Shown piece by piece: positions 10,943 to 44,348 of a DNA stretch of 64,000 nt. The translations under genes were made by a program, and so were the position numbers. Source of the DNA: Trypanosoma brucei (taxonomy: Eukaryota); NCBI GenBank assembly GCA_000002445.1, contig CP000069.1, forward strand, positions 1,440,001-1,504,000, in the 5' to 3' direction. The notes beneath the pieces were generated by a model. That model was not told where the DNA came from. It was given only the letters and a program-made list of their open reading frames with translations, and did no database searches. Numbering within the stretch: position 1 is the stretch's first letter; the number at the start of each line of letters is the position of its first letter.

Positions 10943-11184
10943 ATATCTATTAAAATAAGCTAAATAAAAAATTAAAAACAATGCACAACAGCACCTTTTT
11001 CATACCAGATAACCCTACTGCTGTTCTCCCATAGGCCATTATCACACTCATTTTATAAATATTAAAAATTTTTCAATTTCTCATCAAAAGAGTTTAAAAT
11101 ATATCAAATGATATTAAATTTACCAAATTCTCTATCAAAATAGCAAATTTATAAATTTGAGAAAAAATCTTTTTCGAAACTTAA

Positions 11185-13899: not shown

Positions 13900-14035
13900 T
13901 CTCACTAACAACACTCTCCTATTATTATTATTATTACTGCTCTTATTATAATATTAGTATATACACACTCATAACACTATCCTATCATTACTATCATTGT
14001 TATTAGTGCGATTAATATTATTATTATAACTCTAA
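13900..14035 (-). repeat. 70-bp repeats, two tandem copies
   Basis: Two consecutive units each containing cac(t)aacactctcctat + (tta)n + tattataatatt.gtatatacacactca. Confidence 0.75.
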
Positions 14036-15528: not shown

Positions 15529-16914
15529 TTAAAAAAGCAAAAATGCAAGTGTAAGAAGGGAAGTTTTAATAAGAAAAGAATTGCTTCCTGTGGTGTTTGT
15601 GGTTTTGCTATCTCCTCCATCTTTCTGCTCTGTCTTTTCTTCTAACTTTTTGGCCTCCTCTTTATTCAATTTGCACTTTGCATCCTTTCCTGTTCCCTCC
15701 ACTTTGCATGGTGGTTTACATTCATCTCCTGTTCCTTTCTTTTCGCAAGTTGTGTCTGTTTCTGTGATCTCAACAACTCCTGGAGTTGTTTGAGGCAGTG
15801 GTAAGGTCGTTCCCTCCGTGGCTAGCTTTGCTGCTTCGTACGCATTTCTTGCTGTCAGGGCTAGGTTTTTTAGCTGTTGTCGATAGTGACGAAGAGCTGC
15901 AGAAGCTGTTTGGCCAGCTTTTAGCTTTTCGATCGCATCCCTCATTTTGTTTTCCCAGGTTATTCCCGTCCCGGGTGTCTTTAACTGTGCGACGTAGTTT
16001 ACACAGTTTTGTTCGCTGGCGCCGTCGCATTGGCTGGCGCTGTACTTTCCAAGGACATATCTTATTTCGTCACCGGTTTCCCCGTTGGGATTCCGGCCCA
16101 GCATGCTGTGGAATATTGCTAGTCTGGCCTCGATTAGTTCCCCGGTTAGGGCTGGTGGTTTTGCCGGGGATTTGCAAAGGCTGATGACATGGGTTATCGC
16201 CTGCTGACCGGTATTACCGGCGCCGTCTACTTGTGGCGCGGTGGCGCTGCCGCACTCAGTGGTGGTGGCGGCCGCTTTGTTTGTGCAGAGGCAAATCATG
16301 TCGTCTAGTAAATTTTTTCCTGCCGCGCTATTACCGTTGCTGGTCGGGCCGCAGCTGTTTCTGCTGCCGCCGAAGTCGCCTTCTGTGTACTTGCTGTCTT
16401 TGTCGCCGTATATGGCCGTGAGTATATCTTCTATCGCTTTTGCGTGGCTTTCTGTCGCTGTCTTCTGGGCAGCGTCGTATTTTTCTTGTATTGCGTCCGT
16501 TTGTTTTATCAGTTGTGTTATTATCGCTTGCGCTGAGGCTTTTTGGGCTTTGTTTGTGAGTTTGGCGTATATTTGTTTGTTTTCATCTCCATGTTTTGAG
16601 TTTATTATCTCTGTTATGTGCTGTTGCCACGCTTTTAGTTTTGCCGCATCGTTCCCTTGCATCAGATCCTTGTATTTTCCATTCGCATCTTTTAGGAAGT
16701 CGTCATCTGCTACTGATACATTGAGGTTGTAGATTGGCGTTCTTAGCTCCGAGAAAGTCGCAGATGTTTCTTCGGTTGCTGGCGGGTCGGCCGCGTCTTT
16801 TAATGTGAACAAGTTGCATAGAGCGCCGAATTCAACTGCGTGCTGGTTCTTTGCAGCATTTGCATTCCTTAATAGTATACACAGAGCAAGAAATCTAATA
16901 ATTAACATATTCAT
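15529..16914 (-). CDS. VSG: VSG, apparently intact (B-type N-domain; ~461 aa from ATG at 16912-16914)
   Basis: The track ORF 15529-16947 begins at a GTG. The first in-frame ATG gives MNMLIIRFLALCILLRNANA (signal peptide), followed by AKNQHAVEFGALCNL. Cys-rich C-domain. GPI signal GSNSFLIKTSLLTLAFLLF. Confidence 0.85.
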   Translation of the reverse strand: MNMLIIRFLALCILLRNANAAKNQHAVEFGALCNLFTLKDAADPPATEETSATFSELRTPIYNLNVSVADDDFLKDANGKYKDLMQGNDAAKLKAWQQHITEIINSKHGDENKQIYAKLTNKAQKASAQAIITQLIKQTDAIQEKYDAAQKTATESHAKAIEDILTAIYGDKDSKYTEGDFGGSRNSCGPTSNGNSAAGKNLLDDMICLCTNKAAATTTECGSATAPQVDGAGNTGQQAITHVISLCKSPAKPPALTGELIEARLAIFHSMLGRNPNGETGDEIRYVLGKYSASQCDGASEQNCVNYVAQLKTPGTGITWENKMRDAIEKLKAGQTASAALRHYRQQLKNLALTARNAYEAAKLATEGTTLPLPQTTPGVVEITETDTTCEKKGTGDECKPPCKVEGTGKDAKCKLNKEEAKKLEEKTEQKDGGDSKTTNTTGSNSFLIKTSLLTLAFLLF

Positions 16915-17229
16915 ACCTCTTTCTTTATTTACTGCTATTCGTGGCACTACTTTTGTGTCACTTCAGCTTTGGTTAGGTGGCTGTCTGTGTAGGGTCACAG
17001 CTGGATACGTCGCTCAGGTTTTGTGGCGTTGGTTAAAAAAAGGCAGTAACAGATTTTTTGGCCAAGTGATATTACAAATTTTTTCCGCGCCTACACGAGA
17101 TTATCACATCTTTATTTTGTTCTGCCGCTTCTTACAATTCATTCGCCTAAAACAAATTCTTATCTCTTACCGTATAGACACAAATTCTATCATATTATAT
17201 TCAACATCTTCTCACATTCCGCATAAGTT

Positions 17230-18060
17230 GCAATTTTCTCCAAATATTCGGAAAAAACTGCCTTCCTTCAATCATTTATACCAAATAAGATTTTTCACAA
17301 TCAACTTCGCTTCCTTTTTACATGAAATAGGCTACCCTGGAAACGAATTAATAAAGCGTTTCCAATCACCACACTATTGGGAAGAGTAAAAAATCTCTCT
17401 TCATAATCGAATCCAGTCATTCCACCTCCTCAAAACAGATCTCTGCCCAACATTTTCTTCTTCGATTGCACTCCAAATGAGAAAATGTTTGTAAATGCTT
17501 TGCTCTGCCAACTATTCCTCACTTCCTCTCAGCAATTCTCCCAATGCATATTCAAATTTCTTAACTGCCATACTTTTGCTATTAAACAACCACCATTAAG
17601 GTAATATTTTACACTAGGAGGTGATTTCAGTAAATGAGGTAATTTTCTATCTTTCTTTTCTTTTCTGTAGCCAACATTAAAAAGCCAATAACATCTCTGC
17701 ATATGCTTCTTGTGATCTGAGTTCATAAGCAAATCCAACTGAGAAGCATAACATTCTGATGTTGTTATGAATAAAATAGGGGAAATATGCTTCTCTTTTA
17801 CTATATCTTCTCCACTAAATTTATCTTCATTATCAGCAGTATTTTGTGTAAAATATTTACTGCACTCTCATACTTCTCTTTCCATCAGAAACAATAACAT
17901 CAGACCCATCCAAATGAATTACAATATCCTCATCACTTGCATTATGTCTCTCTAAAATTTTCATAGCCCATCTAGGCCTTTTGACGTGACTATACAAACC
18001 TTCCATTGCAATTGTAATATTTTCAACATGACTTGATTTGGCGCTCAATATAAATCAGCC
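17230..18060 (-). other. Paralogous coding-like block copy A (unknown degenerate gene) immediately upstream of a VSG
   Basis: ~75-85% nucleotide identity to 54880-55610. Minus-strand peptides are conserved between copies: DLLMNSDHKKHMQRCYWLFNVGYRKEKKDRKLPHLLKSPPS vs DLLMNSDHRGHVEGCYWFFNVSYRKEKYKKIPHLVKSPPS; GFDYEERFFTLPNS vs GLDYEERFFSILNS; LYSHVKRPRW vs LYSHVKRPR*. Confidence 0.55.
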
Positions 18061-18699
18061 TACACTGTTCTTGAGTTGTATGAGTTTGTACAACAGCCAG
18101 AAGCACTTTGGGCTTCTTATGATCGTTATGTATTATATATTTTTCTTATTTTTTGCTATTGTATCTTGTGTGAGTGATATTTAACTTAAACAGGTCAAGT
18201 ATAATGGCAACAGTAATAGTCATGCTATAAAGGTAACAAATTTTATTTTTTAATCCACTTTTCAGAATAAATAGGGTTATTAGAAAAAATTGAAAATCTC
18301 GAGAATATGGGAAATTCTATCACAAGGTATATTTTAATTTTCGAAATTTTTACAAGTTTAATTACAAAATATACAGCTCTTTATCTAAATTTAAAACATC
18401 AATATTATGAGTTTCAGTGGTTTTTATTGCTGTTGGTGACGTATAAGCTCCAGCGGTATGTCTACTGCACTTCATCTTACCATCATTTTACTTCTAACAT
18501 ATTTCTGTGCATAATGCCTATCATCATAACTGTGTTTGAATGTGAGCATGCTCAAATTACATTCTTCTACCTTTCTTTGTACTTTTCTTTTAATAATATT
18601 CTTCTTGTCCTTTCTCATTAATCTCATATTCACACTGAAACCTCCCCATCTTTTTTATTGCTTCTGTATCTTCCATTCATTTAGTAACCACCACCGCCG

Positions 18700-22546: not shown

Positions 22547-23960
22547 TTATGAAAAAAATCCAGGAAAAAGAGGAGCCTTGGTTACAACCGAATTGTTTCC
22601 GGTGGTTTTTGTGGCTGTCACACTTTCTTTTGCTCCATCTGCTTGTTTTGACTTGTAAGTTTTATCCACTACGCACTTTGCCTTCTCACCTGTTCCCTCC
22701 CACTTACAACCATCTTTGCAGTTATCTTCTTTCCCTTTCTTTTCGCAAGTTTCGGTTGTATCAGTGAATTTTGATGCCCCTTCCTCGCCTTTCTCACAGC
22801 CACCACTGCTAGTAGCTGCTTTTAAGGCTATGAGCAGCTGTCGGTTTGTTATGTGTTGTACTAGTAGGCTTTTTTCGATGTCAGCGGCTGCACTTTTGAC
22901 GTCTATATTTGTTAGCTTGGCTGATGTTTCCTCTACTTTTTGTGCTTTAGTTTGTGTTAGTTTTTCCCTCAGCTTGTTGACGATGGGCGTTTTGTTGTCG
23001 GCTGCTGCTTTGAAGGTGTCTGTTGCGCCGCTGTCGCCAGTAGTTATCTTTGTGCCACTGCGTGCTTGTATTGCTTCCTTGAGTACGTCTGCGCTGTTCG
23101 CAGGGTCAGGGGCGTAATTTATGACGTCACCTGTCGTCTGGCCGCATTTGGATTCTGGTATGTTGACTACTTTTCCGTATTTTACGTACAGTTTTTCGAT
23201 GTTTGTCTGCGGCGTTGTTTTTTCCCAGTTCGTCCCAAGGTTGTTAAGTGCTTTTTTGTTATTGCAGCGTTCCCGGCTGCCGTGTGTGCCGTAAGCGTTA
23301 GCATGCCGTAGAAAGCATCGTGCGCTGCAGTGGCCGAAGTTTGGAACAGCTTTGATGCGTCGTTGTTGCCTGCCGCCAGCAAGCTGCATTTGGTTTCCGA
23401 TGGCCCGTGCTGCGTGCCACCATCTCCGGCTGTTAATTTTAGTAGTCCTGTGGGCGACAGGTTCGGCGAGTCTGAGTGGTCCGACGGTGTGATGCCCGAC
23501 AGAGCCATGGGTGGGCAGCCGTAGCGAGCGGCCGCATTCCCTTGCGCGCCTGCCGAGCTTTCGGCGATGCATCGGCCATCTCCGCTGCCGCCGTCCGTTT
23601 TAATTAGGAGATCCACTAGCTCTCCGACCGCGCCCGATGCCCTGCCTGCATTGCTGCTCGCGAGGAGAGCCGCGCTAAGGCTTCCGTCAAGGTCGCTAAG
23701 CGCTTGACGTCGGCACTCTGACGCTTTAGTCGCTGCCGTCGCAAATACAGTGCTGAGGTTGACGTCTTCTGTTGCTGCCGCTGCTGAAGCCCCTGCTGTC
23801 AGAGCCTGCTGTTTCTACAGAGCAACGCCACCTACCTTGTCCAGTGCTGCAACAGCACCGCATACGTCTGTTATTGTCTCTGCTGCGAACGGTTTCGCTG
23901 AGCCTTCGCTGTTTGTTGATAAGTGCAAAATTGCTAGAACAATTGCTAACAAGTTTCGCC
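22547..23960 (-). pseudogene. VSG: VSG pseudogene (A-type; stop after signal region plus at least 2 frameshifts)
   Basis: Pieces: ATG near 23958 gives MYWRNLLAIVLAILHLSTNSEGSAKPFAAETITDVCGAVAALDKVGGVAL*; 23182-23616 (N-domain middle); 22547-23300 (C-domain ...CEKKGKEDNCKDGCKWEGTGEKAKC, tail TTGNNSVVTKAPLFPGFFS). Confidence 0.75.
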
Positions 23961-24295: not shown

Positions 24296-25949
24296 TTCTC
24301 AAAATGCTACCCAAATCACAAAAGCAGAATCCGTACTCAGAACTAACTTCTTATTGATGAGAAAATTACCATTTTGATATTTAACTTTGTCTTTCCCCTC
24401 TTAGCTATCTTTGCCCTTTCTCCATGCAAATTTTGTTTATCGCCTGTTTTGTCATTTTCACAAGCCTCCTTATTGGCTCCATTCCTTGCACATCCAGTTG
24501 CTCCTTCTCCTCCTGAAGCCCCATATTCTGTTCCTGCTTCATTTTTCTGAGTTGTAACATTACTTTCATCTACTTTAAAGGTGCCAGGTTTTTCATCAGT
24601 ACCTTCTCATTTGCACTTTTCTGCGTTTTCGCATGCGGTTTTATTGTTTTTGTGCTGTTCGCATTCTTTTTTTCTGCGTTAGAAATTTCCACGTGTTTTC
24701 TTCGTGCTTCTAGAGTGGCATGACGACAGCTGTAAAGAGCTTCTGTGTACAGCGCTCCCATTACACCGGCAAGAGATATGAGCCGAGACTGTTGTTGTTG
24801 TTTCTTTGCTGCTAACGCTCGTCTGTTGATCAGAAAGCTGCGTACCGATAACAGCTTCTCCACCCATTTAATCGCTTCCAGTGGGTTGGACCTGCTTCCA
24901 GCTCCGGCTAATACCGCGGCGTAACTAATGCACACATCCGCCGTGCTATGGTCACCACTACACTGCTAGCTGCTGTCTTTTCCTTTGCCGTAGCGGTATG
25001 TGAAGCCGTCGTTGGCGCTGCCTTTGTATCGGCAAAGTGTTGACCTGAAACTTTGCAGCAGGTTGTCTATGTTGGCTACTTACAGTGCCTGTTTGTTGCC
25101 TTTGAGAGCACACAGCCCTAGGATCTCTGTCAGCGCTGTTCCTGCAGTGCTTTTTCCGCTGTATTCAAGTGCTAGAGCTGTGAAAGTGTTGTCTGTTGAG
25201 TCACATATTTTTGGCCCTGTGCCTGCTGCCTGGCTGGACGCAGCTACGCTGCACAAGCACATCATATCTGACCCTAGTGTGGCGCCGGCTGCGCTTGCTG
25301 ATGATCCGCACGCCGTGGCGTAGTTTGCTTGAAATGTGTAAGTTCCGTGTGTATCTGTGTGCGCTCTTGTCACGGCAGTGTCAGCGCCGTATAGCGCTTC
25401 ATGGGCTTCCTTTGTGATTGTGGTTTGCTGGGCTGTTATTGTTTGCTGTGCCGTTGCGGTCGCGGCATGAAGATTTGTGGCAATGGTGTAAAGCCTGTCA
25501 AGCTTGTGTGCTGTTTCTTCTGGGAAATCTGTGCGATGTTTGCACGTATACTTGTCAACGTGCTGGCCCCTGGGGCCAGCCACTTTGAGGTTTGTGAGCT
25601 CTTTGCGCGTTGTTCTTGCCAAGTTTGGGTCGTATTCCATGATTTTACCTTTGCCGGTGGGTTGGTCTTTTTCACCTACGACAGGACCCTCGTCGTAAAA
25701 TGTTTCATTGCTTGTCGCGATGTAAATCGCGTGGATTTCCTTCCATGCCGTCAAATAGTCCTGTTCGAGGTCGGTTGCTGTTGCATCCTCTAACTTGGCA
25801 CCTTTTAGCATGTTGGCTATCGCGAAGAATATGTTAAGTTCGACTGCATTCTCGTCGTTGTTTGTTGGCATCGCGAGCTGCGATACCTCTATCGCTAGGC
25901 AAAAATACCTAATGGAGATCATTCCGGTTACACCTTGCAGCAATCCCAA
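24296..25949 (-). pseudogene. VSG: VSG pseudogene (B-type N-domain; multiple frameshifts)
   Basis: 25080-25949 B-type N-domain (DMMCLCSVAASSQAAGTGPKICD), track start is TTG. C-domain and GPI tail (NFLINKKLVLSTDSAFVIWVAF*) are recoverable only in shifted frames at 24296-24600. Confidence 0.7.
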
Positions 25950-26030
25950 AAATGGAAAACAATTATGATGAGAGGCTTTATAAAAAGACTTCCAGGAATG
26001 CAGAATGAGTTATGCCATGTTTCAAATAGC

Positions 26031-27110
26031 TTAGCAGTTGAAGAGAGCCCAATGATCATTCAGAAAAGTCAAACCGTTAACAACTACAGCGTGGCTAGTC
26101 ACCCCCTTGGTTTCCATCAGAGTTGCATAATCCTCCTCACGTAAATGATGAACTACTATTATCTGTTCTGTCGTTCGCTCGCCTGCTGTGTCTTTTGCAT
26201 GCATTATATACCGACAATCCTGCATATCCACTGTCAGTAATCCTTCAAATTTCAAGTTGTTCCTTATGACTTCCCCAACCATAATATCTTCATTAAGTGC
26301 TCTAAAATCCATATATGTTTCGAAATTTCTAAATTTGATTGGCGATTTCACTAACTTTTTCAAAGGGTCATAATCAACAATTGCTCTAACTACATCCCTT
26401 GATGAAGTGGACGCATAACCAATAGTATGCCATGTAATTTCGTCACTAAAATCTTTATAATATCCAATCGCCCTCCCCATATTCAGTTTCTCTTGTGGAA
26501 GCACTTCTAGATATTGCAGATACAATGGTACTCTCATAAAAATATGTCATCATCTGCTATTATTATATAGGGACTATTTTTTAGAAAATACTTTAACGGC
26601 AAATTTGAACCACAAATATGTTTTTTTAATCATCGTGAGTTCTGTTTCCCAACCCCAATTACCCGCGTCTCCCACCTTTTTATTTGTTGTGGGGTTGACA
26701 TCGCAAACGGGTAAAATAATAATATCCTGGTTTAACTCTGCCTCTTCTTCAACAATACCCTCTCTGAGCACGCAGTTGTTATTTGTCTGAGGTGAAAGTG
26801 CATATACTATAAGCAACTTGCCAGTAAAATTATTTGACCTCCTTGCGACTTCAGGATAACTCCAACAAGTTTCTCTCTGTAAATTCCTCCTTCTCAATCT
26901 TTCATCGTTATCTATTGAAGGAATTCCAGCCACAACCAAATAATTTTCAGTTTTCCAAATCTTCCTTACATCCAGTGGAACAAATCTCATATATTAATCT
27001 TCAATGATTTCAAGTGGAATAGACTCACCCCCACAGAAAAGCTGTATAGCGAAACAAGTATATTAATCCCCATAACAATAAAAGATAAACAACCTATTAT
27101 TGCATAAATT
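26031..27110 (-). pseudogene. UDP-Gal/UDP-GlcNAc-dependent glycosyltransferase (beta-1,3-GalT/GT31-like) pseudogene, at least 2 frameshifts
   Basis: Type-II membrane anchor MKYIERIYAIIGCLSFIVMGINILVSLYSF (ATG ~27108) runs into a TGA. The catalytic domain restarts +1 at 26990: VVAGIPS...RRRNLQRETCW...LLIVYALS...EEAELNQDIIILPVCDV (DxD-type). The C-part 26031-26537 (...EDIMVGEVI...) is in another frame. The family is inferred from motif pattern, not from a search. Confidence 0.65.
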
Positions 27111-27280
27111 CTTTCTATATACTTCATAGGACTTTATTGTCATACTAAGACGAGCTTATTATGAGTTAGAAAATCACATAAAACATTAAGGAAAGAAGCC
27201 AGTGGGAGCAACTAAGATGTGTAGTAAGGTAAAAAGCGTTTACAAATATAAGTAATGACTTTTTATTGATATGATTTAAC
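26255..27280. repeat. Segmental duplication copy 1 (~1 kb, ~99% identical to 33440-34460)
   Basis: Identical 138-aa ORFs (26574-26990 vs 33757-34173). Only a handful of substitutions were seen by eye, clustered near the right end (catactaagacgagc vs catgctaagaagagc). Flanks are unrelated. Confidence 0.85.
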
Positions 27281-27969
27281 TGTTTAAGGGTGTACACTAA
27301 GTAATGACAGTTTACATTCCACCATGTATAAATTTTTTTCTAGAAGCTAACTTCAGATAGTCACGGCACTGTCTTTGAATATAGAGTGCCTCTTTATACA
27401 TTTACACGGTAATTTCAGTAGATAGTTTCACTGTTTCATTCAAATATAGAAAGAAATTTAATAGTTTCTATGTTGCCTGTATCGGACACCTGGAACCTCC
27501 ATCATACTCGCATTATCGGGGTTTTTTAAACAGCTTCTACAACTTCTTTCACTATCATTTTTGTGCTACTATCTATTCCACTTGAATAAAATGTGTGGAT
27601 CGACAATCGATTAAACTATTCCACACTGTGGTTTAGTCTATCGCGTTGTTACACTCTGTATTTTTCTTCTCCATCTCCTCTGCTTTGTATGTGCAAAAAT
27701 GCAGCTTAAGCCTGACGTGTATACTGAATGCATCCACTTATATCAGCTCGTTGTGTTTTATGCTGACCATCGTGGCGTTTATGTTCTGAAATTCTTACAT
27801 TCTATTTTTATCCCTCTTTCTCTTTTTCTTTACCTTCACTTTCCTCAATAATAGTCCTTGTTTTCTCTCTCTTTGCACTCGTCATTCCTGTCACTCACTT
27901 ACTTCCACTGCACTTTTTCTAGTGATTAGAGCGGCTATGCTTCTTGTTGGCTGTCGGTGCTCAAACTTG

Positions 27970-28155
27970 TACTACTACTACTATTTTATTATTATTACTA
28001 CTCTTATTATAATATTCGTATATATACACACTCACAACACTCTCCTATCATTATCATTATTATTATTATAATTATTACTGCTCTTATTATAATATTCGTA
28101 TATACACACACTCACAACACTCTCCTATCATTATCATTATTATTATTATAACGCT
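27970..28155 (-). repeat. 70-bp repeats, 2-3 tandem copies
   Basis: Two near-identical units ...ctcttattataatattcgtatatatacacactcacaacactctcctatcattatcattattattattataat..., preceded by (tac)/(tta) runs. Confidence 0.85.
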
Positions 28156-28372
28156 AATCATATCCATTAGATACACAAAATTAAAATATCACCCATTTTT
28201 CATTTCTTACCACTCCATTATTTTTCGCACATATGCCACTATCACATATTTTTCATGTTCCATAATTTTTAGTAATTGGCACATTTTTTATTAAATGTTT
28301 CAAAATATATCAGGTTATAAGATATAGAAAATTTTATAGATTTAACAAAAAGGGCTCGATTTACAATTTTTC

Positions 28373-29631
28373 TTACTCTAATTTACTTTTGTCAGTATGT
28401 TGGCCACAGTTTACAGTTGTTGTTCTTTCTACTATCACTTTAACTTTGCACTCCCCATCTTTGAATTCACACCCATCTTTTTTGTTGCACTCAGTTTCGT
28501 CTTTTTCTGCGTTGCAATCTTCTGCTGTTTTGGGATCTACTGCTGTTGGGATCGGTGCTGGTTTGGCTGCTTCTTCTCTGGCTGACCTCTGCTGCTCCAA
28601 ATGGCTTATGATTTGTTGTGCTTCAGTGTCTGTTGTCACTTGGCCGATTGTTTTTGTCCCCATTGTTGTTCCTGTTTTGATCTGGACGCTTTTCTTATCG
28701 ATTATATTTTCGAATAGGTTTTTGAAGGCTGCTTGATCGGAGCCGTAGGTAGTTTCCACGTATTTTGTTAGTGCGGCATTCTGGCTAGTGTCTGTTGGGT
28801 TTTCTATGTTTTTAAATGTCGCGTCACATGCTGCGACTGCTTGAAGCAGTGCCGCGTTTGCTTTGAGACCTGGGCCGCTGTAGGTGGGCACGTGTGCCGG
28901 CTGCGCTGACTGCAGAGCTTCGCAGAGCACTCTGCCCATATATGCGTCGGGGTCGCCTGAGTGTTGCTGCCTCCATTACAGCTGCCGCTGGCTGTTGCCG
29001 TGAACGCCGTCTCCCCAGCCAGTTTATCGAGCTTTGTTTCATCGACTATTTTCATGGTTACTAGCTTGCGTATTTGGATGTCGCTGTTCTTGATTTTTGT
29101 CGTTGTTGCTGGTTCGAGTGTTGCGCAGCCGCCGGCCAGCTTTGAGTCGGTTTCGAGGAGAATTTTCACGGCTTCTGCGCCTGACGGTTTTCGCGTGTGT
29201 AGAGATCCCGTTTTTACTTTTGTTTGAGTGTTGTGCAGTTGCTTTGCTCTGGCAACTCTGGTTAAGTGCTTGCTAAGTAGCTCCGCTGCAGCTTTGGCTT
29301 TTGCCTGTGTCTGTCTGCGGAGCTGCTCGTTTGTCTGCAGTGCCGCTGCGACAGCGGCTTTTAGACCGTGTAGCACACAGCGAGTTTTGCTGTCCGGTGC
29401 TGCTGCCGCTGCTAATGCGAATCGTCTCATGTCTTTTGTGAGATGCGTGATGGCCGATTCGTAGGGCGCGCTAATTGTGCTGACATGCTCCTTAAGTTTA
29501 GTGATGTAAAGCTCTTTGTCACAAGCGTCAGCGATTGCAGTTGCCGCTGCATCCGGTGTTGCTTGGCCAGACAGCTCCGTTAGGTAAAAAGATATCATGG
29601 CCACGAGGACATATCCCTTATTTCTCAACAT
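28373..29631 (-). pseudogene. VSG: VSG pseudogene (frameshift ~28800-28940; C-terminus truncated, no GPI signal)
   Basis: 28804-29631 has a true ATG, signal MLRNKGYVLVAMISFYLTELSG and an N-domain. 28373-28939 is a C-domain ending ...CEFKDGECKVKVIVERTTTVNCGQHTDKSKLE* with no hydrophobic tail. A 16-mer-like element follows within ~60 nt. Confidence 0.75.
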
Positions 29632-31179
29632 CTTTGCTCACTACGTGCCGTTATATCTAAGGTGGAAAATTGTAGTTTCTTTAGTTTACATCTGCTGGTA
29701 TTTTTGTTTTCGTCAAAGTAATCTCCATTTTTGAGGGCTGTCTTCGGCACAAATTTCATTTTTAAGTATCAATGGGCCGTCTTTCCTATCAATTCCTGCA
29801 TGTTAAAGATATGTTGTAGACGAGATTCCTTTTTTTGGGAGTATGTCGTCTCTTAGAAAATTTCAGAAGATTTTTACGGTAGAGGTTCTGCAAGCCTATA
29901 GTTTTTAGTTTTCTTGTGAATTAATTCCATAAATAGCCCAAAAATAACGTCCACCTCTGTTTGACCTGGACACCCTATTTTATTTATACTAAATACTCTT
30001 AGATTCCCGAGCATCCGGTTTGCACAGCACCATGCAAATATTTTTTCAAGCCACCGTCGTTTTTCGCACTAGTTTCAAGCTAATTTAGTTGTTGTCTTAA
30101 TTCATTACTGATTATAGTACAGTTGTTTTGCATTTATGTGCACTGCTGTGCGCTTTATCGCTTGTAGCTCGTGAGCTATTGCAGAAGGTAATGTCGCAGT
30201 TAGTTGGGCTTTACATAATATTCGTGCTTTTAAGTTATTCCTTGTTGTTTATAGTCTAGGGGATGATTCTACAGTTAGTGCTAAACTCTTTTTTATATTA
30301 TGCATCCTTTTAGCATAGAATCAATTGGTGACAGGTGACAGCCTGCTTTGTAATACAATCTCCAAGTTTCCTTCATTTATAAAATTCCAAGCTGTCTTTG
30401 TCATTATCTATCACATTCCCATATGCAGTCAAGAATTCTAATCTCTTCTCACAAAATCGCTAAAAACTCTCTATACCTATACTTACAACCTATATTTATG
30501 TTGTTGGGTTCTACTTTATCTACAAAATTGTCTATGCTTTTTTGCTGGTGGAACAACAAATTAATGGTGTTGTCTATCCACGATCCGCTGATGCGGCTAG
30601 TTTTTTCTGCCCGTCCTGTTATATTTTTTTGGTTTTCCACTTAAGGTTTGGCAATTTTCGCCAAATAAAGTTCTTCTCCGCTGTCTTTCTTTTATAAATA
30701 CTTACTATTAGATGTATAGAAGCCACATCTCTTATATAAATTACTCTGTCCTTGAAGTACTTCAGCGGCTGGCCAGTATACCAAGAAAGAATTGGCAAAG
30801 TGTTGCTGCTAATACTCTCCACTTCATATAGAGTCCTTGTAAAGGTTAATGTTCGCGTTTTCTTATTATCTTCTAGTCTCTCTTTCCTTGCACTTTCTTC
30901 AGAAGCAGCTCCTTATCCTGCCGTTATATGAAACGTAGCAGCCACATTCGCTGTGGCTGCCGGGTGCTAGCTGTTGCTGACCAGGGTTGCCATATTAATG
31001 GGGGTGACACTCACTTGTGCATATCGATTTCTAAAGGTGAGTATAGTCCGCATACTTCTTTGCATCTCGTTAATAATAATATTCTTAGTGGCTGCCGATC
31101 ATCTTTCTCACTACTTGGCCTCATTTTATCATACCATTGTTTAAGTATTTTGGATTTGAATTTATCATAAATTTTCTTA

Positions 31180-31262
31180 TTATAATAGTAGTATACGCAA
31201 AATCACAACACCTTTCTGTCATTATCACTATCATCGTCATTTTTACGGCTATTACCGTAAAT
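31180..31262 (-). repeat. Degenerate 70-bp-repeat remnant
   Basis: tataatagtagtatacgcaaaatcacaacacctttctgtcattatcactatcatcgtcat, then conserved block gcactaatttttcatgccctatcacc. Confidence 0.4.
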
Positions 31263-31436
31263 CACTCTTAAAATGTACAATATAGACAAAAAAGTTAATT
31301 TGAATAGCACTAATTTTTCATGCCCTATCACCATAATACTGTGCACTCATAGATCACATTCGTGCATATGTTACTACATTTTTCATACCTCCAAAATTTT
31401 ACTAATTTGCATATTTTAACTAGAAAGTGTTAAAAT

Positions 31437-31452
31437 ATACCAAATATATGAA
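31437..31452 (-). promoter_or_regulatory. VSG 3'UTR 16-mer (1 mismatch)
   Basis: gtgttaaaatatacca, ~75 nt downstream of the VSG stop at 31524. Confidence 0.65.
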
Positions 31453-31523
31453 TTATGGACAATTCTCTGAAAGTAGCATATTTTCATAAATTTCATAAAA
31501 ATAAGAAAAAAATCTACTAATTC

Positions 31524-33094
31524 TTAAAATTTTACTAAACTAACAAAAGCAGCAGCCATCTTAGCCAATTTCTTATCTACGAGAAAACTGGAATCTTTGC
31601 AAGCATTATTTTCCCATTTGCAGTTTCCAGTGCAATCTTTCTGTTGTTTGTCCTTGCAATCTGAAGAAGTTTGGGTCCCTGCTTGGGTTGCTTGTTGTTC
31701 TACTGCTGTTGTATTCAATTCACAGTGGTTTCCTGTTTGTTCAGTTTCTTTAGTCCATTTGCATTTTGTGTTTTTTGTGCAATCTGTTTTTTCTCTAAGT
31801 TCTTGCACTCTTTTTCGGCTTCTTCTTGTTGTTTTTTTGAGTCACCTGATGGTGCTTGAGCCGGGTGTGCTGGCTTTGGTGTTGGTTGTTTCAGGGCTTC
31901 CATCGCGTTTAGGCTTAGCAGTGTTGTTAGCGTCTGGTTGAGCGCGTGTATTTGGGCTTCAGCGGCTTGTATATTTGCAGTGTCGCCGGCGGCGGCTTCT
32001 AACTTTGACGCTGCTTCATCTATTAGTGCTAGCCAGCTGGGCTCTTCTATTGCTGTTCCGCTTGTCGCGAATGACGCACATGCCCCTGCGTTGCTGCTCT
32101 CTGTTCCGTCGCAGCTGCCGCTACCGTCGCCTGTCCTCGTTCCGAGAAAGCCCCAGTGTGTTCCGGCGCTGCCCTTGGTTGCATAGAGGTCTGCTTTGAT
32201 ACCTTGTAGCAAATGCCGTAGGCGTTGCGGGGTCAGCGCTTTGCCAGGCGGGTTTGCTGTTTTGCAGTGGGCCTTCATTGTTGTCTAGTCTGTTATGGCG
32301 GTGTTACTGTTCCAGTCTCTCTGCTGTGTTGTTTGGGTGTGGTAACACGCCTTGTTGTTTGAGCCGTCGTTGGCGCAGAGGCACGCTATGGTCGCTGCGA
32401 TTGTCAGTTTCGCCGACGTTCCCGGGGTTGACTGAGCGTTGCCGCAGTGCTCCGTCCGGGAGCTGCCCGCCCCTTTGAGTGCCGCTGCGCTGGTCACTGC
32501 CCCGTCGCCGTAAACCGCTTGTTTCAGCAGCTGCTTTGCGGTTTGCCTGCCATCGGCTGCCTTTTCCTCGCTGGTGCGCTTGCTAGCCTGCACGACGGCG
32601 AGGGCTGTCATATTGATTAAGTTCTTGAAACCCCGGTCATCGGTGGCCGCTTTTGTTACTGCTGACTTCTGGTCTGCTGTAAGCGCTTTGTAGTAAAGTG
32701 CCGCCGCTTTGCAGGTTTGCAGTTTTGTGCCTTTGCAAGACTCCGGTGCTTTGTCGTCTGTCAAGGCGTTTATCTCCTCTGTTGTTTTTGTTTCGCCGAT
32801 GGTTTGCAGTGCCGCTGTGTTGTTAAGGTACAACGCCAGGTTTTCTGCGCCTGTTACCGCCTTTTGTGCAGCGGCCGCTAGTGTCACGGGTTGGCTATCT
32901 TCTTCCTCTGCCGCCAGCACCACACCGCACAGTAAACCAAATATCTTTTTGTTTTCTCCTTTGGCTGGCTCCGCTGCTTTGCAGTCCATTTTCAGCAGTG
33001 ATATTGCCAGTGTTACCGCTACTATCAGCATTGATTGGTTTAATCGCTGGCCTAGACTTAGCTTCAGTGTCGACTTCGGCTGCTGTCCTTGCAT
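31524..33094 (-). pseudogene. VSG: VSG pseudogene (B-type; one in-frame stop ~32279-32284 and one frameshift ~31715-31808)
   Basis: 32285-33094 (ATG at 33092-33094, signal MLIVAVTLAISLL; CLCANDGSNNKAC); 31715-32278; 31524-31808 (C-domain + GPI tail DSSFLVDKKLAKMAAAFVSLVKF). Confidence 0.8.
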
Positions 33095-33439
33095 TCAGTC
33101 CCTGGTGTCTGTTGCTTCTAGTGTTATCCTGATGCGCTACTGGCGAGCAGAAAATGTGGAGGTCGGGCAGTAACTTAGATGGACTTAATGTGCAAAAACA
33201 AACTCTCAAATGTCAAATTCACTCTACATCATTGGGCTTTTATACAGAGTTGATGTAGAATATTTAAGGAAGCTTTTGTGAAAAATAGTCTGTTGCCAGG
33301 TATATTCATACCCTGTTTTATAATAAAAGACTGTGCGTTAGTTAGATGTTGATACATATTTGATTAGTGATTCTTGTATATTCATCGAATATAGACAAAC
33401 CCGCATTTCCACAGCTAATAAACCCCTTAATTTCAATTT

Positions 33440-34460
33440 AATCCTTATAACTTCTCCGACCATAATATCTTCATTAAGTGCTCTAAAATCCATATATATT
33501 TTGCGAAATTTCTGAATTTGATTGGCGATTTCACTAACTTTTTCAAAGGGTCATAATCAACAATTGCTCTAACTACATCCCTTGATGAAGTGGACGCATA
33601 ACCAATAGTATGCCATGTAATTTCGTCACTAAAATCTTTATAATATCCAATCGCCCTCCCCATATTCAGTTTCTCTTGTGGAAGCACTTCTAGATATTGC
33701 AGATACAATGGTACTCTCATAAAAATATGTCATCATCTGCTATTATTATATAGGGACTATTTTTTAGAAAATACTTTAACGGCAAATTTGAACCACAAAT
33801 ATGTTTTTTTAATCATCGTGAGTTCTGTTTCCCAACCCCAATTACCCGCGTCTCCCACCTTTTTATTTGTTGTGGGGTTGACATCGCAAACGGGTAAAAT
33901 AATAATATCCTGGTTTAACTCTGCCTCTTCTTCAACAATACCCTCTCTGAGCACGCAGTTGTTATTTGTCTGAGGTGAAAGTGCATATACTATAAGCAAC
34001 TTGCCAGTAAAATTATTTGACCTCCTTGCGACTTCAGGATAACTCCAACAAGTTTCTCTCTGTAAATTCCTCCTTCTCAATCTTTCATCGTTATCTATTG
34101 AAGGAATTCCAGCCACAACCAAATAATTTTCAGTTTTCCAAATCTTCCTTACATCCAGTGGAACAAATCTCATATATTAATCTTCAATGATTTCAAGTGG
34201 AATAGACTCACCCCCACAGAAAAGCTGTATAGCGAAACAAGTATATTAATCCCCATAACAATAAAAGATAAACAACCTATTATTGCATAAATTCTTTCTA
34301 TATACTTCATAGGACTTTATTGTCATGCTAAGAAGAGCTTATTATGAGTTAGAAAATCACATGAAACATGAAGGAAAGAAGCCAGTGGGAGCAACTAAGA
34401 TGTGTAGTAAGGTAAAAAGCGTTTACAAATATAAGTAATGACTTTTTATTGATATGATGC
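33440..34460. repeat. Segmental duplication copy 2
   Basis: See copy 1. Right boundary ~34459 (gatatgat|gcaactg vs gatatgat|ttaactg). Confidence 0.85.
33445..34290 (-). pseudogene. Truncated second copy of the glycosyltransferase pseudogene (5' ~840 bp only)
   Basis: 33757-34173 encodes the identical 138-aa catalytic-domain N-part. The anchor segment is identical upstream. 33445-33720 matches copy 1 only as far as ...SPIKFRNF, then diverges at the duplication boundary. Confidence 0.7.
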
Positions 34461-34844
34461 AACTGTTAAATGGTTCATGCGCAGTGTGTGTAGGTTATCT
34501 TTCAGCATGTATATGTTGCATTTATTTTATAAATTACCTTCACCCGTCCTTAGTGCCACACACTGCGTGCATTCCGCTATTCCTTTCATTATCCACATTA
34601 TACAAAATTTAACACTATGCATTGCTATGTAACTTGGAGTAAATAGTTGACTACAATGTTTCCACATACTAATAATTTAATCACCTTCCTCTGATATATA
34701 TACCGCAAATCCAGTTTCGCCGCCAGACCCCTATCAGAGTTGCTTTATGAATCACGTATTTTCATTGCGCACTTACCATTGTTTTAAGTATTTTTATTTT
34801 CGTTTTTCAGTTACTTTTCTCCCTTGCCCTTCATTTGATATTAC

Positions 34845-34905
34845 TACATGCCCACTCACAACACTATTCTATCATTATGCTTACTGCTATAAACCTCGCC
34901 AATAT
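34845..34905 (-). repeat. Degenerate 70-bp-repeat remnant
   Basis: catgcccactcacaacactattctatcattatgcttactgctataaacc, then the conserved block (...atatcactcatttttcataccccatcactctattac). Confidence 0.45.
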
Positions 34906-35187: not shown

Positions 35188-36637
35188 TTATGCTAGAATC
35201 AAAAATGCAAGCCAAAGATGGGCCTTGTGAATGACAATAGAATTGCTACCTGTGGTGTTTTGGGTTTCTGCTGTTCCTGTTTCTTCAACTTGAGCTATGC
35301 ATTTGTCTTTTTTTAATTCGCATCCATCTTCTGTTTTGCATTTTTTGTCATTTATCGCTTTGCATTTGTCGCTTATTTCTTTTCTCACTCCAGGACTTCT
35401 TGATGCAGTTGCTACCGCCCTTGAGTCTATGAGCTGTTTGCCTTTCAAAAATGTTAGAACTTTTGCGGCGCCGTCGCTCCCTGCTGTTTCGAAGATCGTC
35501 TTGTCAAATGTCGTTTCTATTACTTTCAGATTGAGTGGTGCCTTCTCGATTGAATCTGTTATTTGTGCTGTGAACGCGTTTTGGTTGCTGCCGAGGTAGG
35601 TGTCTGTTATTCCCTTTTTTGACTGCGGCTCTGTTGGTGCTTTGCCACCTGGGTTTATCAGGTCCGTTAGAGCCTGCAGTGGTTTGTCGTTTGCTCTAAC
35701 CGTTGCCATGATATTCGGTGTATTGGCGTATAAGTGGGTTTTTGAGCTGAAGGATGCTGCAGAGTGCATTGCCTAGAGTATCCTTGTCGTATTCTGAGTA
35801 CGGAACTGTGTCGCTGACTTTGGCGCACGCTTTTGTTACCACATTTGTGAACAGATTGACGTCAACGGTTTTGTAGGCCGTTGTTTGCTCAGTTAGTCTG
35901 GTTGCCATGGCGTTGGCCCTTTGATTTACGAAGTCGTTGCCTTGCTCTATGCATGCTCCATGTTGCGTAGCTGATGCAGTTGGTGTTGTTTTTACTGTGC
36001 CTTTACAATGTTTTGTTACTGTGAACGTTGTTGGCGGCTTTGCAAGGTCGACCAATTTGATTTTCGTGTGCTTGGTCGGTTCTATGTCCGCTGCTTTTAC
36101 GCCACCGGTTTCAGATTCAAGTGTGCAGTTCGTTGTATCTGCTGTGAAGGACGCTGTGCTTGTGCACGTTGTCATTCCTGTTACGCTGCTTAGTTATTGT
36201 CCAGACTGGGCTTCAGAGCTAGAGACGTTCGCCGTCTCCGGCTGTGTTTTGTGTAATGTCAGCATAGTGGCTTCCTGCTGCTTGATTGCTCGGAAGGCTC
36301 TTTCGTATACTTGGCTCTCCTCATTGGTTTGGCTGTCCAGCGTGTGTAGGTCTGCTTCGGTTACCGCCATTGCAAGAAAAGTTATGTGACTCGGCTTCCC
36401 TTGGCTGAAAGCGGCTTTTATTCTGTAAGCTAATGCTGCTTGTATTGCTTGTCGGCGGATCGCTATTGCAGAGGGCCGAGATTGCTCTAGTTTTCTTGCC
36501 AATTTGTGAAGGTACTGCGCCGCGGCGCAAGCAGTTGATACTGCCTTCGTCGCCGTGTCCTCGATTTCTGCGGCTCCTACAGGCATGCTACTGACAAGTG
36601 TCATAACAAATGCGTGCCACAGGCTTTCTGACTTCAT
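35188..36637 (-). pseudogene. VSG: VSG pseudogene (A-type; 2 frameshifts)
   Basis: 36194-36637 true ATG, signal MKSESLWHAFVMTLVSSMPVGAAE; 35696-36175 middle; 35188-35769 C-domain (CKAINDKKCKTEDGCELKKDKC) + GPI tail GSNSIVIHKAHLWLAFLILA. Confidence 0.8.
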
Positions 36638-40780: not shown

Positions 40781-42244
40781 TTATTTTAGAAGCAAAACTA
40801 CAAGCAAAAGAGGGCTTTTATGAATGAAAATAGAATTGCTTCCCGTAGTGTTTGTTGTTTTCCCATCATTCCCTTCTGTTTCTTGGTTTGATTTTTCTAG
40901 TTTTTCTTTCACCTCCTTTTTCAACTCACACTTTTTGGTGTCAGTATTAAAACTGCACCCCTTATCCTTTAGGCCTTTACATTTATCTTCATCATCTTTT
41001 GCTTCACCGCAAATTTTTTCTGTTGCCTTTAGATCTTGGTGTTTGGTAGACTCTTCTAGCCTTTTATCAAGCGTTGCGAAGTCTTGGGATAAACGTTGCT
41101 GGTAGTAGCTCAACAAGTTGGTTAATTCGATGCTGTTTTTGATGTCCTCGAGTTTTGTAGGAGTTTGTCGCATCGCTGCACCTTTTGGAATATCCTCTTT
41201 TTCAATTAATGTTATAATTGTGTTGATGGTATCCACATTTGTATTGGAGAAAACGGTTTCTATTGCTTTCTTTTCATCGCTGCCTTGGTGGTCTTTTGCT
41301 TCGCCGAACAAATTTTGCGCGGCTTCCTTCAGTGCCGCTCGTTCTGTGAGGTCGCCGCTTTCGTTGGCGTACTCTGTGGGCAGCGTCCGGTCGACCAACT
41401 TTATGGCTGCATGTGCCTCCGCCCAGTGCTTTAAGCCGTCGCTGGTCGTTTTGATTAGGTTTGCCTTGTTTGCCGTTGCCAGTTCCCCCGCCGTGTTGGG
41501 AATCGTCAGGTACCCAGCCATCACCGTCACCGCTGCATCTGTTCCCCCGCTCTTGGCGAAACCCTTGCTGTTGTGCGCCGTTGTTAGGTGGCATTCTTTG
41601 GTCGCCGCTGTTGGTTGGTGCTTGTTGCCGCCGGTCCCTTCGACTAAGTTTATGTATCCTGCGGTTGTTATGTGGGTCGGTGTCCGTCGCGTTGCGGTGA
41701 TTGGGCTTTGTGTTAGCTTGCACTCTGTTTGGCCGAGTTTTGTCGTAGCGCTGCGTGTCACTGGCGTGTCTGCGTTTTCATCTGCCAGTAGGCACGCGTT
41801 GTTGCTCCCGTCGACCGTTTGCTCCAGTAGCTTAAGGAAATCGTCGACCAGACCCTTTACGTAAGCGCTCCGACTGGCGGCTTCTACTTGTTGTTTTATA
41901 TAGGTGTCTTTTAGTTGCCTAACTGCTGTGGCTGCTTTGGCTTCGTAGGCTGCTGCTATGGTGATAGCCGCTTTTGTCCATTTGTGCTTGGGGTTTTTTA
42001 GGCTGAAAATCCTTGCCCGCTTCGCTGCCGCGTCGAAGTCTATTGTGGCTGCGATCATCTCCGTCGCTTCTTGTAGAACGTGACCTTCTATGCCGTCTAA
42101 TTCTTCGCTTACTTGACATAGCGGTTCCCACGTGGTTTTCTTTATGCCGACGCCTGTGGCGGCGTCTACGCGTTTAAGCCCGGTTGCGAGAAGCAGCGTC
42201 ATCACGAAAAGCACTAATGGCTGCAACCATTGCGAGCTCTGCAT
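40781..42244 (-). CDS. VSG: VSG, apparently intact (A-type, 487 aa)
   Basis: True ATG (cat 42242-42244). Signal MQSSQWLQPLVLFVMTLLLATGLKRVDA. N-domain TTWEPLCQVSEELDG. C-domain CGEAKDDEDKCKGLKDKGCSFNTDTKKC. GPI signal GSNSIFIHKSPLLLVVLLLK. Confidence 0.85.
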   Translation of the reverse strand: MQSSQWLQPLVLFVMTLLLATGLKRVDAATGVGIKKTTWEPLCQVSEELDGIEGHVLQEATEMIAATIDFDAAAKRARIFSLKNPKHKWTKAAITIAAAYEAKAATAVRQLKDTYIKQQVEAASRSAYVKGLVDDFLKLLEQTVDGSNNACLLADENADTPVTRSATTKLGQTECKLTQSPITATRRTPTHITTAGYINLVEGTGGNKHQPTAATKECHLTTAHNSKGFAKSGGTDAAVTVMAGYLTIPNTAGELATANKANLIKTTSDGLKHWAEAHAAIKLVDRTLPTEYANESGDLTERAALKEAAQNLFGEAKDHQGSDEKKAIETVFSNTNVDTINTIITLIEKEDIPKGAAMRQTPTKLEDIKNSIELTNLLSYYQQRLSQDFATLDKRLEESTKHQDLKATEKICGEAKDDEDKCKGLKDKGCSFNTDTKKCELKKEVKEKLEKSNQETEGNDGKTTNTTGSNSIFIHKSPLLLVVLLLK

Positions 42245-44099: not shown

Positions 44100-44111
44100 T
44101 ACTCACTTGAT
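44100..44111. repeat. 12-mer tactcacttgat, copy 1 of 3 (flanks the RIME-A-type fragment)
   Basis: Identical 12-mer at 44100-44111, 44337-44348 and 49591-49602, each abutting an ingi/RIME terminus. Confidence 0.7.
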
Positions 44112-44336
44112 GGATGACACTGCTGATGGCACACTGGCACGTGCCAAGGGACCGACAAATGAAAAACGGTGTCCCAGCAAGACGCTGCTGATCCCTGTGC
44201 TGTATGATGCCGTAGCCGGAACAAAGCAGTGTTCCCTATGAGAGGAACTCTGCTGGCTCTTGGCTTCCCCCGATGATACGGGGTACTGGACCCTGGCACC
44301 ACGTTGAGGTGGCCGGCATCGCCAGGGTACTCACTT
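44112..44336 (-). mobile_element. RIME-A-type fragment (first ~225 bp of an ingi/RIME 5' end), 3'-truncated
   Basis: ~95% identical to the ingi 5' end at 49366-49590. Ends at the same ccaggg terminus. Bounded on both sides by tactcacttgat. Confidence 0.75.
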
Positions 44337-44348
44337 GATTTTTTGGAA
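44337..44348. repeat. 12-bp target-site duplication of the ingi (3' side), followed by a T5-6 run that is the poly(A) tail on the minus strand
   Basis: tactcacttgat then ttttt, then the ingi 3' terminus begins at 44354. Confidence 0.7.

What the first reader, a model, noticed from the sequence alone, without database searches (positions are those of the whole stretch)
26255..34460. Recent ~1-kb segmental duplication carrying a frameshifted glycosyltransferase pseudogene, spanning two VSG cassettes
26255-27280 and 33440-34460 are ~99% identical over ~1 kb, while everything around them is unrelated.

Copy 1 contains a complete but frameshifted GT31-like UDP-sugar glycosyltransferase: type-II anchor, DxD-type catalytic N-part, and an EDIMVGEV C-part in three frames. 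Copy 2 keeps only the 5' ~840 bp and ends exactly at the duplication boundary.

Shared frameshifts mean the gene was already dead when copied.

The two copies sit in equivalent positions (just upstream of a VSG, downstream of the next cassette) 7.2 kb apart. This looks like a gene-conversion or unequal crossing-over footprint within the array, not independent decay.
Basis: seen in the sequence. Interest (0 to 1): 0.55.

Follow-up and report, generated by a model that had tools for sequence, protein, structure and literature searches.

The report
Gene-converted glycosyltransferase pseudogene pair, VSG array
Two dead copies of a trypanosome sugar-transferase gene, each sitting just upstream of a surface-antigen (VSG) gene in the Trypanosoma brucei reference genome, recently had about 1 kb copied from one to the other, which is an ordinary event in these recombination-prone gene arrays.

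Summary
The repeat is real. Window 26248-27291 matches 33429-34474 at 98.3% over 1046 bp, and nothing else in the window matches either flank.

It is not a uniform "1-kb duplication". An 812-bp core (26332-27143 = 33515-34326) is 100% identical. It is flanked by a ~95% 5' stretch and by a 3' stretch that decays from 94% to 70% to noise.

[quoted passage not shown] They are 65-74% identical to intact TREU927 paralogues. The four inactivating lesions all lie in the identical core, so they are shared.

Copy 2 does not stop at the repeat boundary. An older, more decayed GT tail continues to at least 33350 and is no closer to copy 1 than to other paralogues.

The best reading is recent ectopic gene conversion between two pre-existing paralogous pseudogenes. 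It is neither a fresh insertion nor unequal crossing-over.

Each copy lies inside its own VSG cassette, between a 70-bp repeat and an unrelated b-type VSG pseudogene.

The window is the annotated T. b. brucei TREU927 genome. Subtelomeric GT pseudogenes and gene conversion there are well known, so interest is low.

The parts
26248..27291 (-). Repeat copy 1 (BLAST-defined high-identity block)
   Evidence: 98.28% over 1046 columns to 33429-34474; alignment
33429..34474 (-). Repeat copy 2 (BLAST-defined high-identity block)
26332..27143 (-). Perfectly identical 812-bp core in copy 1, read as the most recent conversion tract
   Evidence: No difference between 27143 and 26332; clustering of all differences outside it has P about 2e-12
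33515..34326 (-). Perfectly identical 812-bp core in copy 2
27144..27291 (-). 5' flank of the repeat: non-coding, pyrimidine-rich region upstream of the GT start codon. About 95% identical (8 substitutions in 148 bp). Homology starts abruptly at 27291/34474.
26031..27127 (-). GT pseudogene 1, full length. ATG at 27127, hydrophobic anchor, DDD at 26554-26546, EDIMVGEV, C-terminal Cys, TAA stop at 26033-26031. Lesions: a frameshift (probably -1) within the T4/G5-run stretch 27043-27028; TAA nonsense 26996-26994; +1 in the A6 run 26582-26577; +2 in the T5 run 26542-26538.
   Evidence: Three-frame translations and coordinates; tblastn of paralogues covers 27127-26034; family hit
33290..34310 (-). 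GT pseudogene 2. It carries the same four lesions (nonsense 34179-34177, A-run 33765-33760, T-run 33725-33721). It also has a private CA insertion at 33503-33502 and a diverged tail with an internal stop. The end of homology is certain to 33350 and probable to about 33290. The C-terminal ~30 codons are missing.
   Evidence: A tail-only profile built from the paralogues hits 33439-33350 with E=2e-7
27986..28145 (-). Two 70-bp-type repeats (80-bp period) that open the VSG cassette containing GT pseudogene 1
34853..34878 (-). Degenerate partial 70-bp repeat that opens the cassette containing GT pseudogene 2
   Evidence: 26 bp at 92% to the 70-bp unit; sequence read
25080..25949 (-). N-terminal part of a b-type VSG pseudogene, starting about 80 bp downstream of GT pseudogene 1
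   Evidence: Pfam VSG_B, E=1.4e-17
31715..33094 (-). b-type VSG pseudogene (two ORF pieces) downstream of GT pseudogene 2, unrelated to the VSG at 25080-25949
   Evidence: Pfam VSG_B, E=2.1e-21; 48-68% identical to T. brucei VSGs; no relation to the other VSG
28373..29631 (-). Frameshifted ORF pair lying between the two GT-bearing cassettes. I infer it is a VSG pseudogene from its position, its Cys-rich C-terminal part and the VSG-type 3' flank. There is no Pfam hit.
   Evidence: no family hit. A degenerate 70-bp repeat lies upstream of it at 31162-31234

Best explanation
[quoted passage not shown] They lie 7.18 kb apart in the same orientation. Each sits inside a silent VSG cassette, between that cassette's 70-bp repeat and its VSG.

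Homologous recombination (ectopic, non-reciprocal gene conversion within the chromosome or between sister chromatids) recently copied about 0.8-1.05 kb from one pseudogene onto the other. The copied stretch covers the 5' untranslated region and the first ~265 codons.

The 3' end of the tract resolved in the conserved YMDFRALNEDIMVGEV-coding region, where the two paralogues were still similar. Each copy therefore kept its own older 3' tail.

The ~95% 5' flank next to a 100% core means one of two things: two nested events of different age, or patchy mismatch repair at the tract end.

The sequences have no enzymatic function. Their only likely consequence is structural: an 812-bp perfect direct repeat that can mediate further deletion or duplication in the array.

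Shown: the repeat, its mosaic identity profile, family membership, the shared lesions and the cassette context. Inferred: the recombination mechanism, its recency and its direction. I lean weakly towards copy 1, or a copy-1-like donor, converting copy 2.
For: - Repeat and identity profile: 100% over 812 bp, about 95% on the 5' side, and 94% falling to 70% then 50% on the 3' side.
- The differences are significantly clustered outside the core.
- All four lesions lie inside the identical core and are shared.
- The copy 2 tail is still GT-derived. tblastn aligns P0001 residues 229-317 to 33547-33287. A profile built only from the paralogue tails hits 33439-33350 at E=2e-7.
- After the EVIR motif the two copies share only 12/46 residues. 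Copy 1 shares 16-23/46 with intact paralogues and copy 2 shares 16-18/48.
- The flanks and the downstream VSGs are unrelated.
- Published background: HR dominates double-strand-break repair in T. brucei, ectopic templates are used, and tracts are under 2.5 kb on one side (PMC2377438). Partial gene conversion producing chimaeric copies was found in 21 of 47 T. brucei tandem arrays (PMC1855330).
Against: - No outgroup or second strain could be obtained, so recency, direction and the existence of an unconverted ancestral state are all inferred (searches found nothing usable).
- The 5' edge of homology at 27291 is abrupt rather than graded. A pure conversion between old paralogues does not predict that; it needs an earlier event or a limit of ancestral homology.
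- The published T. brucei survey found ectopic conversion rare compared with conversion inside tandem arrays.
- A third, unseen donor locus elsewhere in the genome cannot be excluded.
Confidence: 0.75

Rival explanations
1. Both pseudogenes were converted, at the same or different times, by a third GT pseudogene located elsewhere in the genome. Neither copy in this window is the donor.
For: The ~95% 5' flank beside the 100% core suggests more than one event. GT pseudogenes occur in multiple subtelomeric copies in T. brucei-group genomes (PMC4288722; PMC2854126).
Against: No third copy exists in this 64-kb window. The closest proteins in the large database are only 65-74% identical. A perfect 812-bp match between two independent recipients would need two very recent events.
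Confidence: 0.12
2. One reading: a single recent segmental duplication inserted a new ~1-kb fragment of pseudogene 1 at a previously GT-free site, and copy 2 ends at the duplication boundary.
For: High identity over about 1 kb with unrelated flanks. The 5' boundary is abrupt.
Against: GT homology in copy 2 continues at least 90 bp, and probably ~150 bp, beyond the block, in a lineage distinct from copy 1. The differences cluster at both ends and do not fit a single event followed by uniform decay.
Confidence: 0.06
3. Unequal crossing-over duplicated a 7.2-kb array unit. The repeats would be the remains of that tandem duplication.
For: The repeats are direct, have the same orientation and lie 7183 bp apart in equivalent positions of two cassettes.
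Against: Nothing else in the two units is similar. The downstream VSGs are unrelated (BLASTP E=0.13, no tblastx hit), and the upstream spacers have no match. The unit between them holds a different cassette.
Confidence: 0.03
4. Assembly artefact: reads from one GT pseudogene were placed twice, producing a false perfect core.
For: The perfect core of 812 bp is about one Sanger read long. Subtelomeric arrays are hard to assemble (PMC4288722).
Against: Both copies are joined to unique flanks through stretches of graded, non-identical homology on both sides. A collapsed or duplicated read set would not produce that.
Confidence: 0.03

Closest known systems
[quoted passage not shown]
   Same: 65-74% amino-acid identity to TREU927 members. 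Short cytoplasmic N-terminus followed by a hydrophobic anchor, a DDD motif, an EDIMVGEV motif and a C-terminal Cys. This matches the type-II topology and DDD motif described for TbGT10 (PMC8477195).
   Different: Both copies are dead: three frameshifts and a nonsense codon, and copy 2 also lacks the C-terminus. They lie in a silent VSG array, not in a transcribed core region. The repaired protein scores only 18.1 bits on Pfam Galactosyl_T, below the 23-bit cut-off.
Subtelomeric glycosyltransferase genes and pseudogenes of the T. brucei group
   Same: Glycosyltransferases make up 1.1-1.5% of subtelomeric genes in T. b. brucei and T. b. gambiense (PMC2854126). Multiple GT pseudogene copies are reported in T. 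evansi, and the family is described as subtelomeric and variable between strains (PMC4288722). The window itself is TREU927 sequence.
   Different: I found no paper describing this particular pair or its conversion tract.
Partial (chimaera-forming) gene conversion among T. brucei gene duplicates
   Same: A tract of perfect identity inside older, diverged paralogues, with breakpoints near the start codon and inside the coding region, as catalogued for 21 of 47 tandem arrays (PMC1855330). HR-based repair with short tracts and use of ectopic templates has been shown experimentally (PMC2377438).
   Different: The partners here are pseudogenes separated by another VSG cassette, not adjacent tandem copies. 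No selection can be acting on the product.
VSG cassette duplication and segmental VSG conversion (70-bp repeat to VSG 3' end)
   Same: Both copies lie inside cassettes bounded by 70-bp repeats. The cassette as a mobile unit is visible in this window: a T. equiperdum contig shares only 11093-13968, running from a 70-bp repeat to a VSG 3' end.
   Different: The tract uses neither the 70-bp repeats nor the VSG 3' end as a boundary, and it does not include a VSG. It is a conversion of the spacer only.

Membership tests
T. brucei GT67 (beta3GT-derived) UDP-Gal/UDP-GlcNAc-dependent glycosyltransferases | Significant full-length sequence similarity to named family members | tested here: met
T. brucei GT67 (beta3GT-derived) UDP-Gal/UDP-GlcNAc-dependent glycosyltransferases | Pfam Galactosyl_T (PF01762) domain above the gathering score | tested here: inconclusive
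   The frame-repaired protein scores 18.1 bits against a 23-bit cut-off. Its homologues P0001, P0003, P0004 and P0007 carry PF01762 in precomputed annotation.
T. brucei GT67 (beta3GT-derived) UDP-Gal/UDP-GlcNAc-dependent glycosyltransferases | Type-II membrane topology (short N-terminal tail followed by a ~20-residue anchor) | tested here: met
   MKYIER followed by IYAIIGCLSFIVMGINILVSLY, read directly from the translation. It is 93% identical to the N-terminus of P0004. No dedicated transmembrane predictor was run.
T. brucei GT67 (beta3GT-derived) UDP-Gal/UDP-GlcNAc-dependent glycosyltransferases | DXD (DDD) nucleotide-sugar/metal motif and the EDIMVG motif | tested here: met
   IIIADDDIF at 26554-26546 and EDIMVGEV in both copies. 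The DDD segment is out of frame with its neighbours.
T. brucei GT67 (beta3GT-derived) UDP-Gal/UDP-GlcNAc-dependent glycosyltransferases | Intact open reading frame, i.e. a functional member | tested here: not met
   Three frameshifts and one nonsense codon are shared by both copies. Copy 2 also has an extra 2-bp insertion, a stop in its tail and a lost C-terminus. These are pseudogenes of the family, not working members.
   The literature places the T. brucei family in its own CAZy family, GT67, derived from a beta3GT ancestor (PMC8477195). 'GT31-like' holds only as a resemblance.
Gene-conversion tract between paralogues | A run of identity significantly longer than the flanking divergence predicts | tested here: met
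   An 812-bp run with no differences while all 18 differences fall in the remaining 234 bp. P is about 2e-12, and 0 of 200,000 simulations reached it.
Gene-conversion tract between paralogues | Older, lower-identity homology continuing beyond the tract on both sides | tested here: inconclusive
   On the 3' side it is met: a graded fall plus an independent GT tail in copy 2. On the 5' side there are only 148 bp at ~95%, then an abrupt end at 27291/34474.
Gene-conversion tract between paralogues | Segment-wise phylogenetic incongruence and donor polarity, shown with outgroups or other paralogues at DNA level | not testable with these tools
   No DNA of the other T. brucei paralogues or strains could be fetched. 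Only protein-level counts are available.
Tandem duplication by unequal crossing-over | Similarity extending over the whole repeated unit, including neighbouring genes | tested here: not met
   The downstream VSGs are unrelated. The spacers have no match.
Silent-array VSG cassette | A 70-bp repeat upstream of a VSG coding sequence on the same strand | tested here: met
   70-bp repeats at 27986-28145 and, degenerate, at 34853-34878. VSG_B domains at 25080-25949 and 32285-33094. The window's intact VSGs are exact matches to TREU927 proteins XP_845633 and XP_845635.

The most novel reading that the evidence does not exclude
The GT-pseudogene tract might be more than a passive footprint. It could serve as a long, perfect upstream homology block in the spacer between the 70-bp repeat and the VSG. 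That would let the two cassettes exchange or lose their VSGs without using the 70-bp repeats, for example by deleting or duplicating the 7.18 kb between the repeats. It would then be one of the substrates that shape turnover of the silent VSG archive.
Probability: 0.1. Interest if true: 0.35.

Novelty: already known. Interest (0 to 1): 0.12.

Why it matters
It matters little. It is a clean small example of how T. brucei subtelomeric arrays are homogenised piecemeal by homologous recombination, here acting on sequence that cannot be under selection. That makes the tract a neutral marker of recombination.

It could be used to calibrate tract length and recency of ectopic conversion in the silent VSG archive. 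It also flags an 812-bp perfect direct repeat that could drive deletion or duplication of two VSGs.

It does not reveal a new gene, system or mechanism.

Tried and rejected
- Comparative dating failed. Exact look-ups of GT paralogues P0001 and P0006 and of a window VSG found no contigs. Fourteen ORFs or ORF pieces in and around the repeats, plus the retroelement ORF at 45504-47942, are absent from the protein collection. The VSG next to copy 2 has no orthologue with a contig; its best hit is 52% identical.
- The one contig obtained from another taxon (T. equiperdum, L001) shares only the cassette at 11093-13968 and does not reach the repeats.
- I looked for an older duplication of whole cassettes. 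tblastx and BLASTP between the two downstream VSGs found nothing.
- I looked for further GT fragments in the window. There are none beyond the two copies.
- I looked for other copies of the repeat flanks. There are none.
- A mobile-element explanation was rejected. There are no inverted repeats, and I saw no target-site duplications at the repeat ends when reading the alignment.
- Selection as the cause of the perfect core was rejected, because the core carries the inactivating lesions.
- An Rfam scan of the whole window found nothing.
- Pfam gave no family for the ORFs at 28373-29631, and local BLASTP against the few VSGs in hand also found nothing. Its VSG label is therefore an inference.
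- Literature searches found no description of this specific pair. The Marcello and Barry archive paper is not held.


Full report
**Where the window comes from**

Two intact ORFs of the window (11188-12651 and 40784-42244, minus strand) are exact matches to VSG proteins XP_845633 and XP_845635 of Trypanosoma brucei brucei TREU927. Both are recorded on a 1,618,915-bp chromosome.

The window is a silent VSG array, with all genes on the minus strand:
- VSG_B and Trypan_glycop domains.
- 70-bp repeats on the minus strand upstream of most VSGs.
- An ingi-type retroelement at about 44.3-49.6 kb.

**The observation**

The repeat is real. Window 26248-27291 matches 33429-34474 at 98.28% over 1046 columns, with 16 mismatches and 2 gaps. 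It is the only long repeat of this quality in the window. The flanks do not align and have no other match in the window.

The identity is not uniform. Read in gene (minus-strand) direction:
- Homology begins abruptly at 27291/34474.
- The first 148 bp carry 8 substitutions (about 95%).
- The next 812 bp (27143 to 26332 = 34326 to 33515) are identical.
- Identity then falls to 94%, 70% and about 50% in successive 50-bp windows.

Placing all 18 differences outside the core by chance has a probability of about 2e-12.

**What the sequence is**

Joining the reading-frame pieces of copy 1 gives a 365-residue protein. [quoted passage not shown] It matches T. congolense and T. rangeli homologues more weakly.

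It has the following features:
- a short N-terminal tail and a hydrophobic anchor;
- an ADDDIF motif;
- the EDIMVGEV motif;
- the family's C-terminal cysteine.

This fits the published description of the family: type-II Golgi enzymes with a DDD motif, 19 genes excluding pseudogenes, CAZy GT67, derived from a beta3GT ancestor (PMC8477195). Pfam Galactosyl_T is hit only below its cut-off, at 18.1 against 23 bits.

Copy 1 (27127 to 26031) is full length but has four lesions:
- a frameshift (probably -1) within 27043-27028, a stretch with a T4 and a G5 run;
- a GAA-to-TAA nonsense codon at 26996-26994;
- a +1 insertion in the A6 run at 26582-26577;
- a +2 insertion in the T5 run at 26542-26538.

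All four lie in the identical core, so copy 2 has them too.

Copy 2 does not end at the repeat boundary.
- tblastn aligns residues 229-317 of paralogue P0001 to 33547-33287, and residues 96-173 of P0006 to 33547-33296.
- A profile built only from the C-terminal tails of six paralogues, with the conserved EDIMVGxV motif excluded, finds just two significant pieces among 2529 six-frame pieces of the window. One is the copy 1 tail (E=8e-18). The other is the copy 2 tail at 33439-33350 (E=2e-7).

In this tail copy 2 has a private CA insertion (33503-33502) and an internal stop, and it has lost the last ~30 codons.

After the EVIR motif the two copies share 12 of 46 residues. Copy 1 shares 16-23 of 46 with intact paralogues, and copy 2 shares 16-18 of 48. 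The two tails therefore belong to different, old lineages of the family.

A new 1-kb insertion cannot explain this. The 5' ~1 kb of one resident pseudogene was overwritten from the other, or both were overwritten from a third copy.

**Context**

Each pseudogene lies inside a VSG cassette, filling most of the spacer between the cassette's 70-bp repeat and its VSG.
- Cassette with copy 1: 70-bp repeats 28145-27986, then 0.7 kb of unique sequence, then GT pseudogene 1, then 80 bp, then the VSG_B pseudogene at 25949-25080.
- Cassette with copy 2: degenerate 70-bp repeat 34878-34853, then 0.36 kb of unique sequence, then GT pseudogene 2, then about 0.2-0.3 kb, then the VSG_B pseudogene at 33094-31715.

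A different cassette lies between the two. It has a degenerate 70-bp repeat at 31234-31162 and a frameshifted ORF pair at 29631-28373. I infer that this ORF pair is a VSG, but I did not confirm it.

The two downstream VSGs are unrelated: BLASTP gives E=0.13 and tblastx finds no hit. There is thus no trace of a duplicated 7.2-kb unit, and unequal crossing-over is not supported.

**Mechanism (inferred)**

I infer homologous recombination repair using an ectopic template 7.18 kb away, on the same chromatid or the sister chromatid.

In T. brucei, HR dominates double-strand-break repair, can use ectopic templates, and gives tracts under 2.5 kb on one side (PMC2377438). Partial conversion producing chimaeric duplicates is common in its gene arrays (PMC1855330).

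The 3' end of the perfect tract falls at the start of the most conserved coding stretch (YMDFRALNEDIMVGEV). This is where two old paralogues would still offer homology for resolution.

The 5' flank is non-coding yet ~95% identical, and it sits beside a 100% core. Under one event followed by uniform mutation this is unlikely: (148/960)^8 is about 3e-7, by my own arithmetic. So either two nested events of different age occurred, or mismatch repair at the tract end was patchy. I cannot separate these.

Direction is uncertain. The core is lightly damaged, like the copy 1 tail (no lesion in 300 bp), and unlike the copy 2 tail (two lesions and a truncation in about 220 bp). This leans weakly towards copy 1, or a copy-1-like donor, converting copy 2.

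For scale, the one inter-taxon comparison I could make is a VSG cassette shared with T. equiperdum, which is 96.4% identical. A perfect 812-bp tract therefore looks young.

**Comparison with what is known, and verdict**

Glycosyltransferase genes and pseudogenes are a recognised component of T. brucei subtelomeres. They make up 1.1% of subtelomeric genes (PMC2854126), and they occur as multiple pseudogene copies that vary between strains (PMC4288722).

The locus is part of the published reference genome. Gene conversion in these arrays is textbook.

I found no paper describing this particular pair, but nothing about it departs from known kinds.

Noticed in passing
window 44100-49602 (minus strand): An ingi-type non-LTR retroelement, with a reverse transcriptase + RNase H ORF at 45501-47942 and an endonuclease ORF at 47867-49090. 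Its first ~231 bp are repeated directly downstream of its A-rich tail (44109-44339 vs 49374-49602, 95%). The motif TCAAGTGAGTA occurs three times, at the junctions 49602-49592, 44340-44330 and 44110-44100. This looks like a target-site duplication plus a solo 5' fragment.
   Followed up: partly
window 17226-18121 and 54863-55676: A second, older shared segment: about 75% identical over about 0.9 kb. In both places it lies just upstream (minus sense) of a VSG (15529-16947 and 53130-54596). The two copies share a minus-strand peptide, LDLLMNSDH..CYW.FNV.YRKEK. I did not identify it; it may be another decayed non-VSG gene in the cassette spacer.
   Followed up: partly
window 11093-13968; locus L001 8683-11556: A T. 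equiperdum contig (CZPT02001608.1) matches the window only across one VSG cassette, at 96.4%. The match starts at the 70-bp repeat (13968) and ends after the VSG 3' end. The flanks are not syntenic, which illustrates the cassette as the unit of movement.
   Followed up: partly
window 25949-26031: The stop codon of GT pseudogene 1 lies only about 80 bp from the start of the downstream VSG ORF. No GT 3' UTR seems to remain, which suggests an old recombination junction right at the end of the GT coding region.
   Followed up: no
window 28373-29631, 35188-36175 and 22547-23572: Several ORF pairs sit in VSG positions but give no Pfam VSG hit at E<=1. Only their C-terminal parts resemble VSG C-terminal domains, and 28373-29631 matches none of the few VSGs I had in hand. 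They are probably diverged or frameshifted VSG pseudogenes.
   Followed up: partly
window 26538-26582 (also 33721-33765): The +1 and +2 insertions flanking the DDD motif sit in homopolymer runs (A6 and T5) about 35-40 bp apart. Together they restore the reading frame, so only about 13 codons around the catalytic motif are read out of frame.
   Followed up: no
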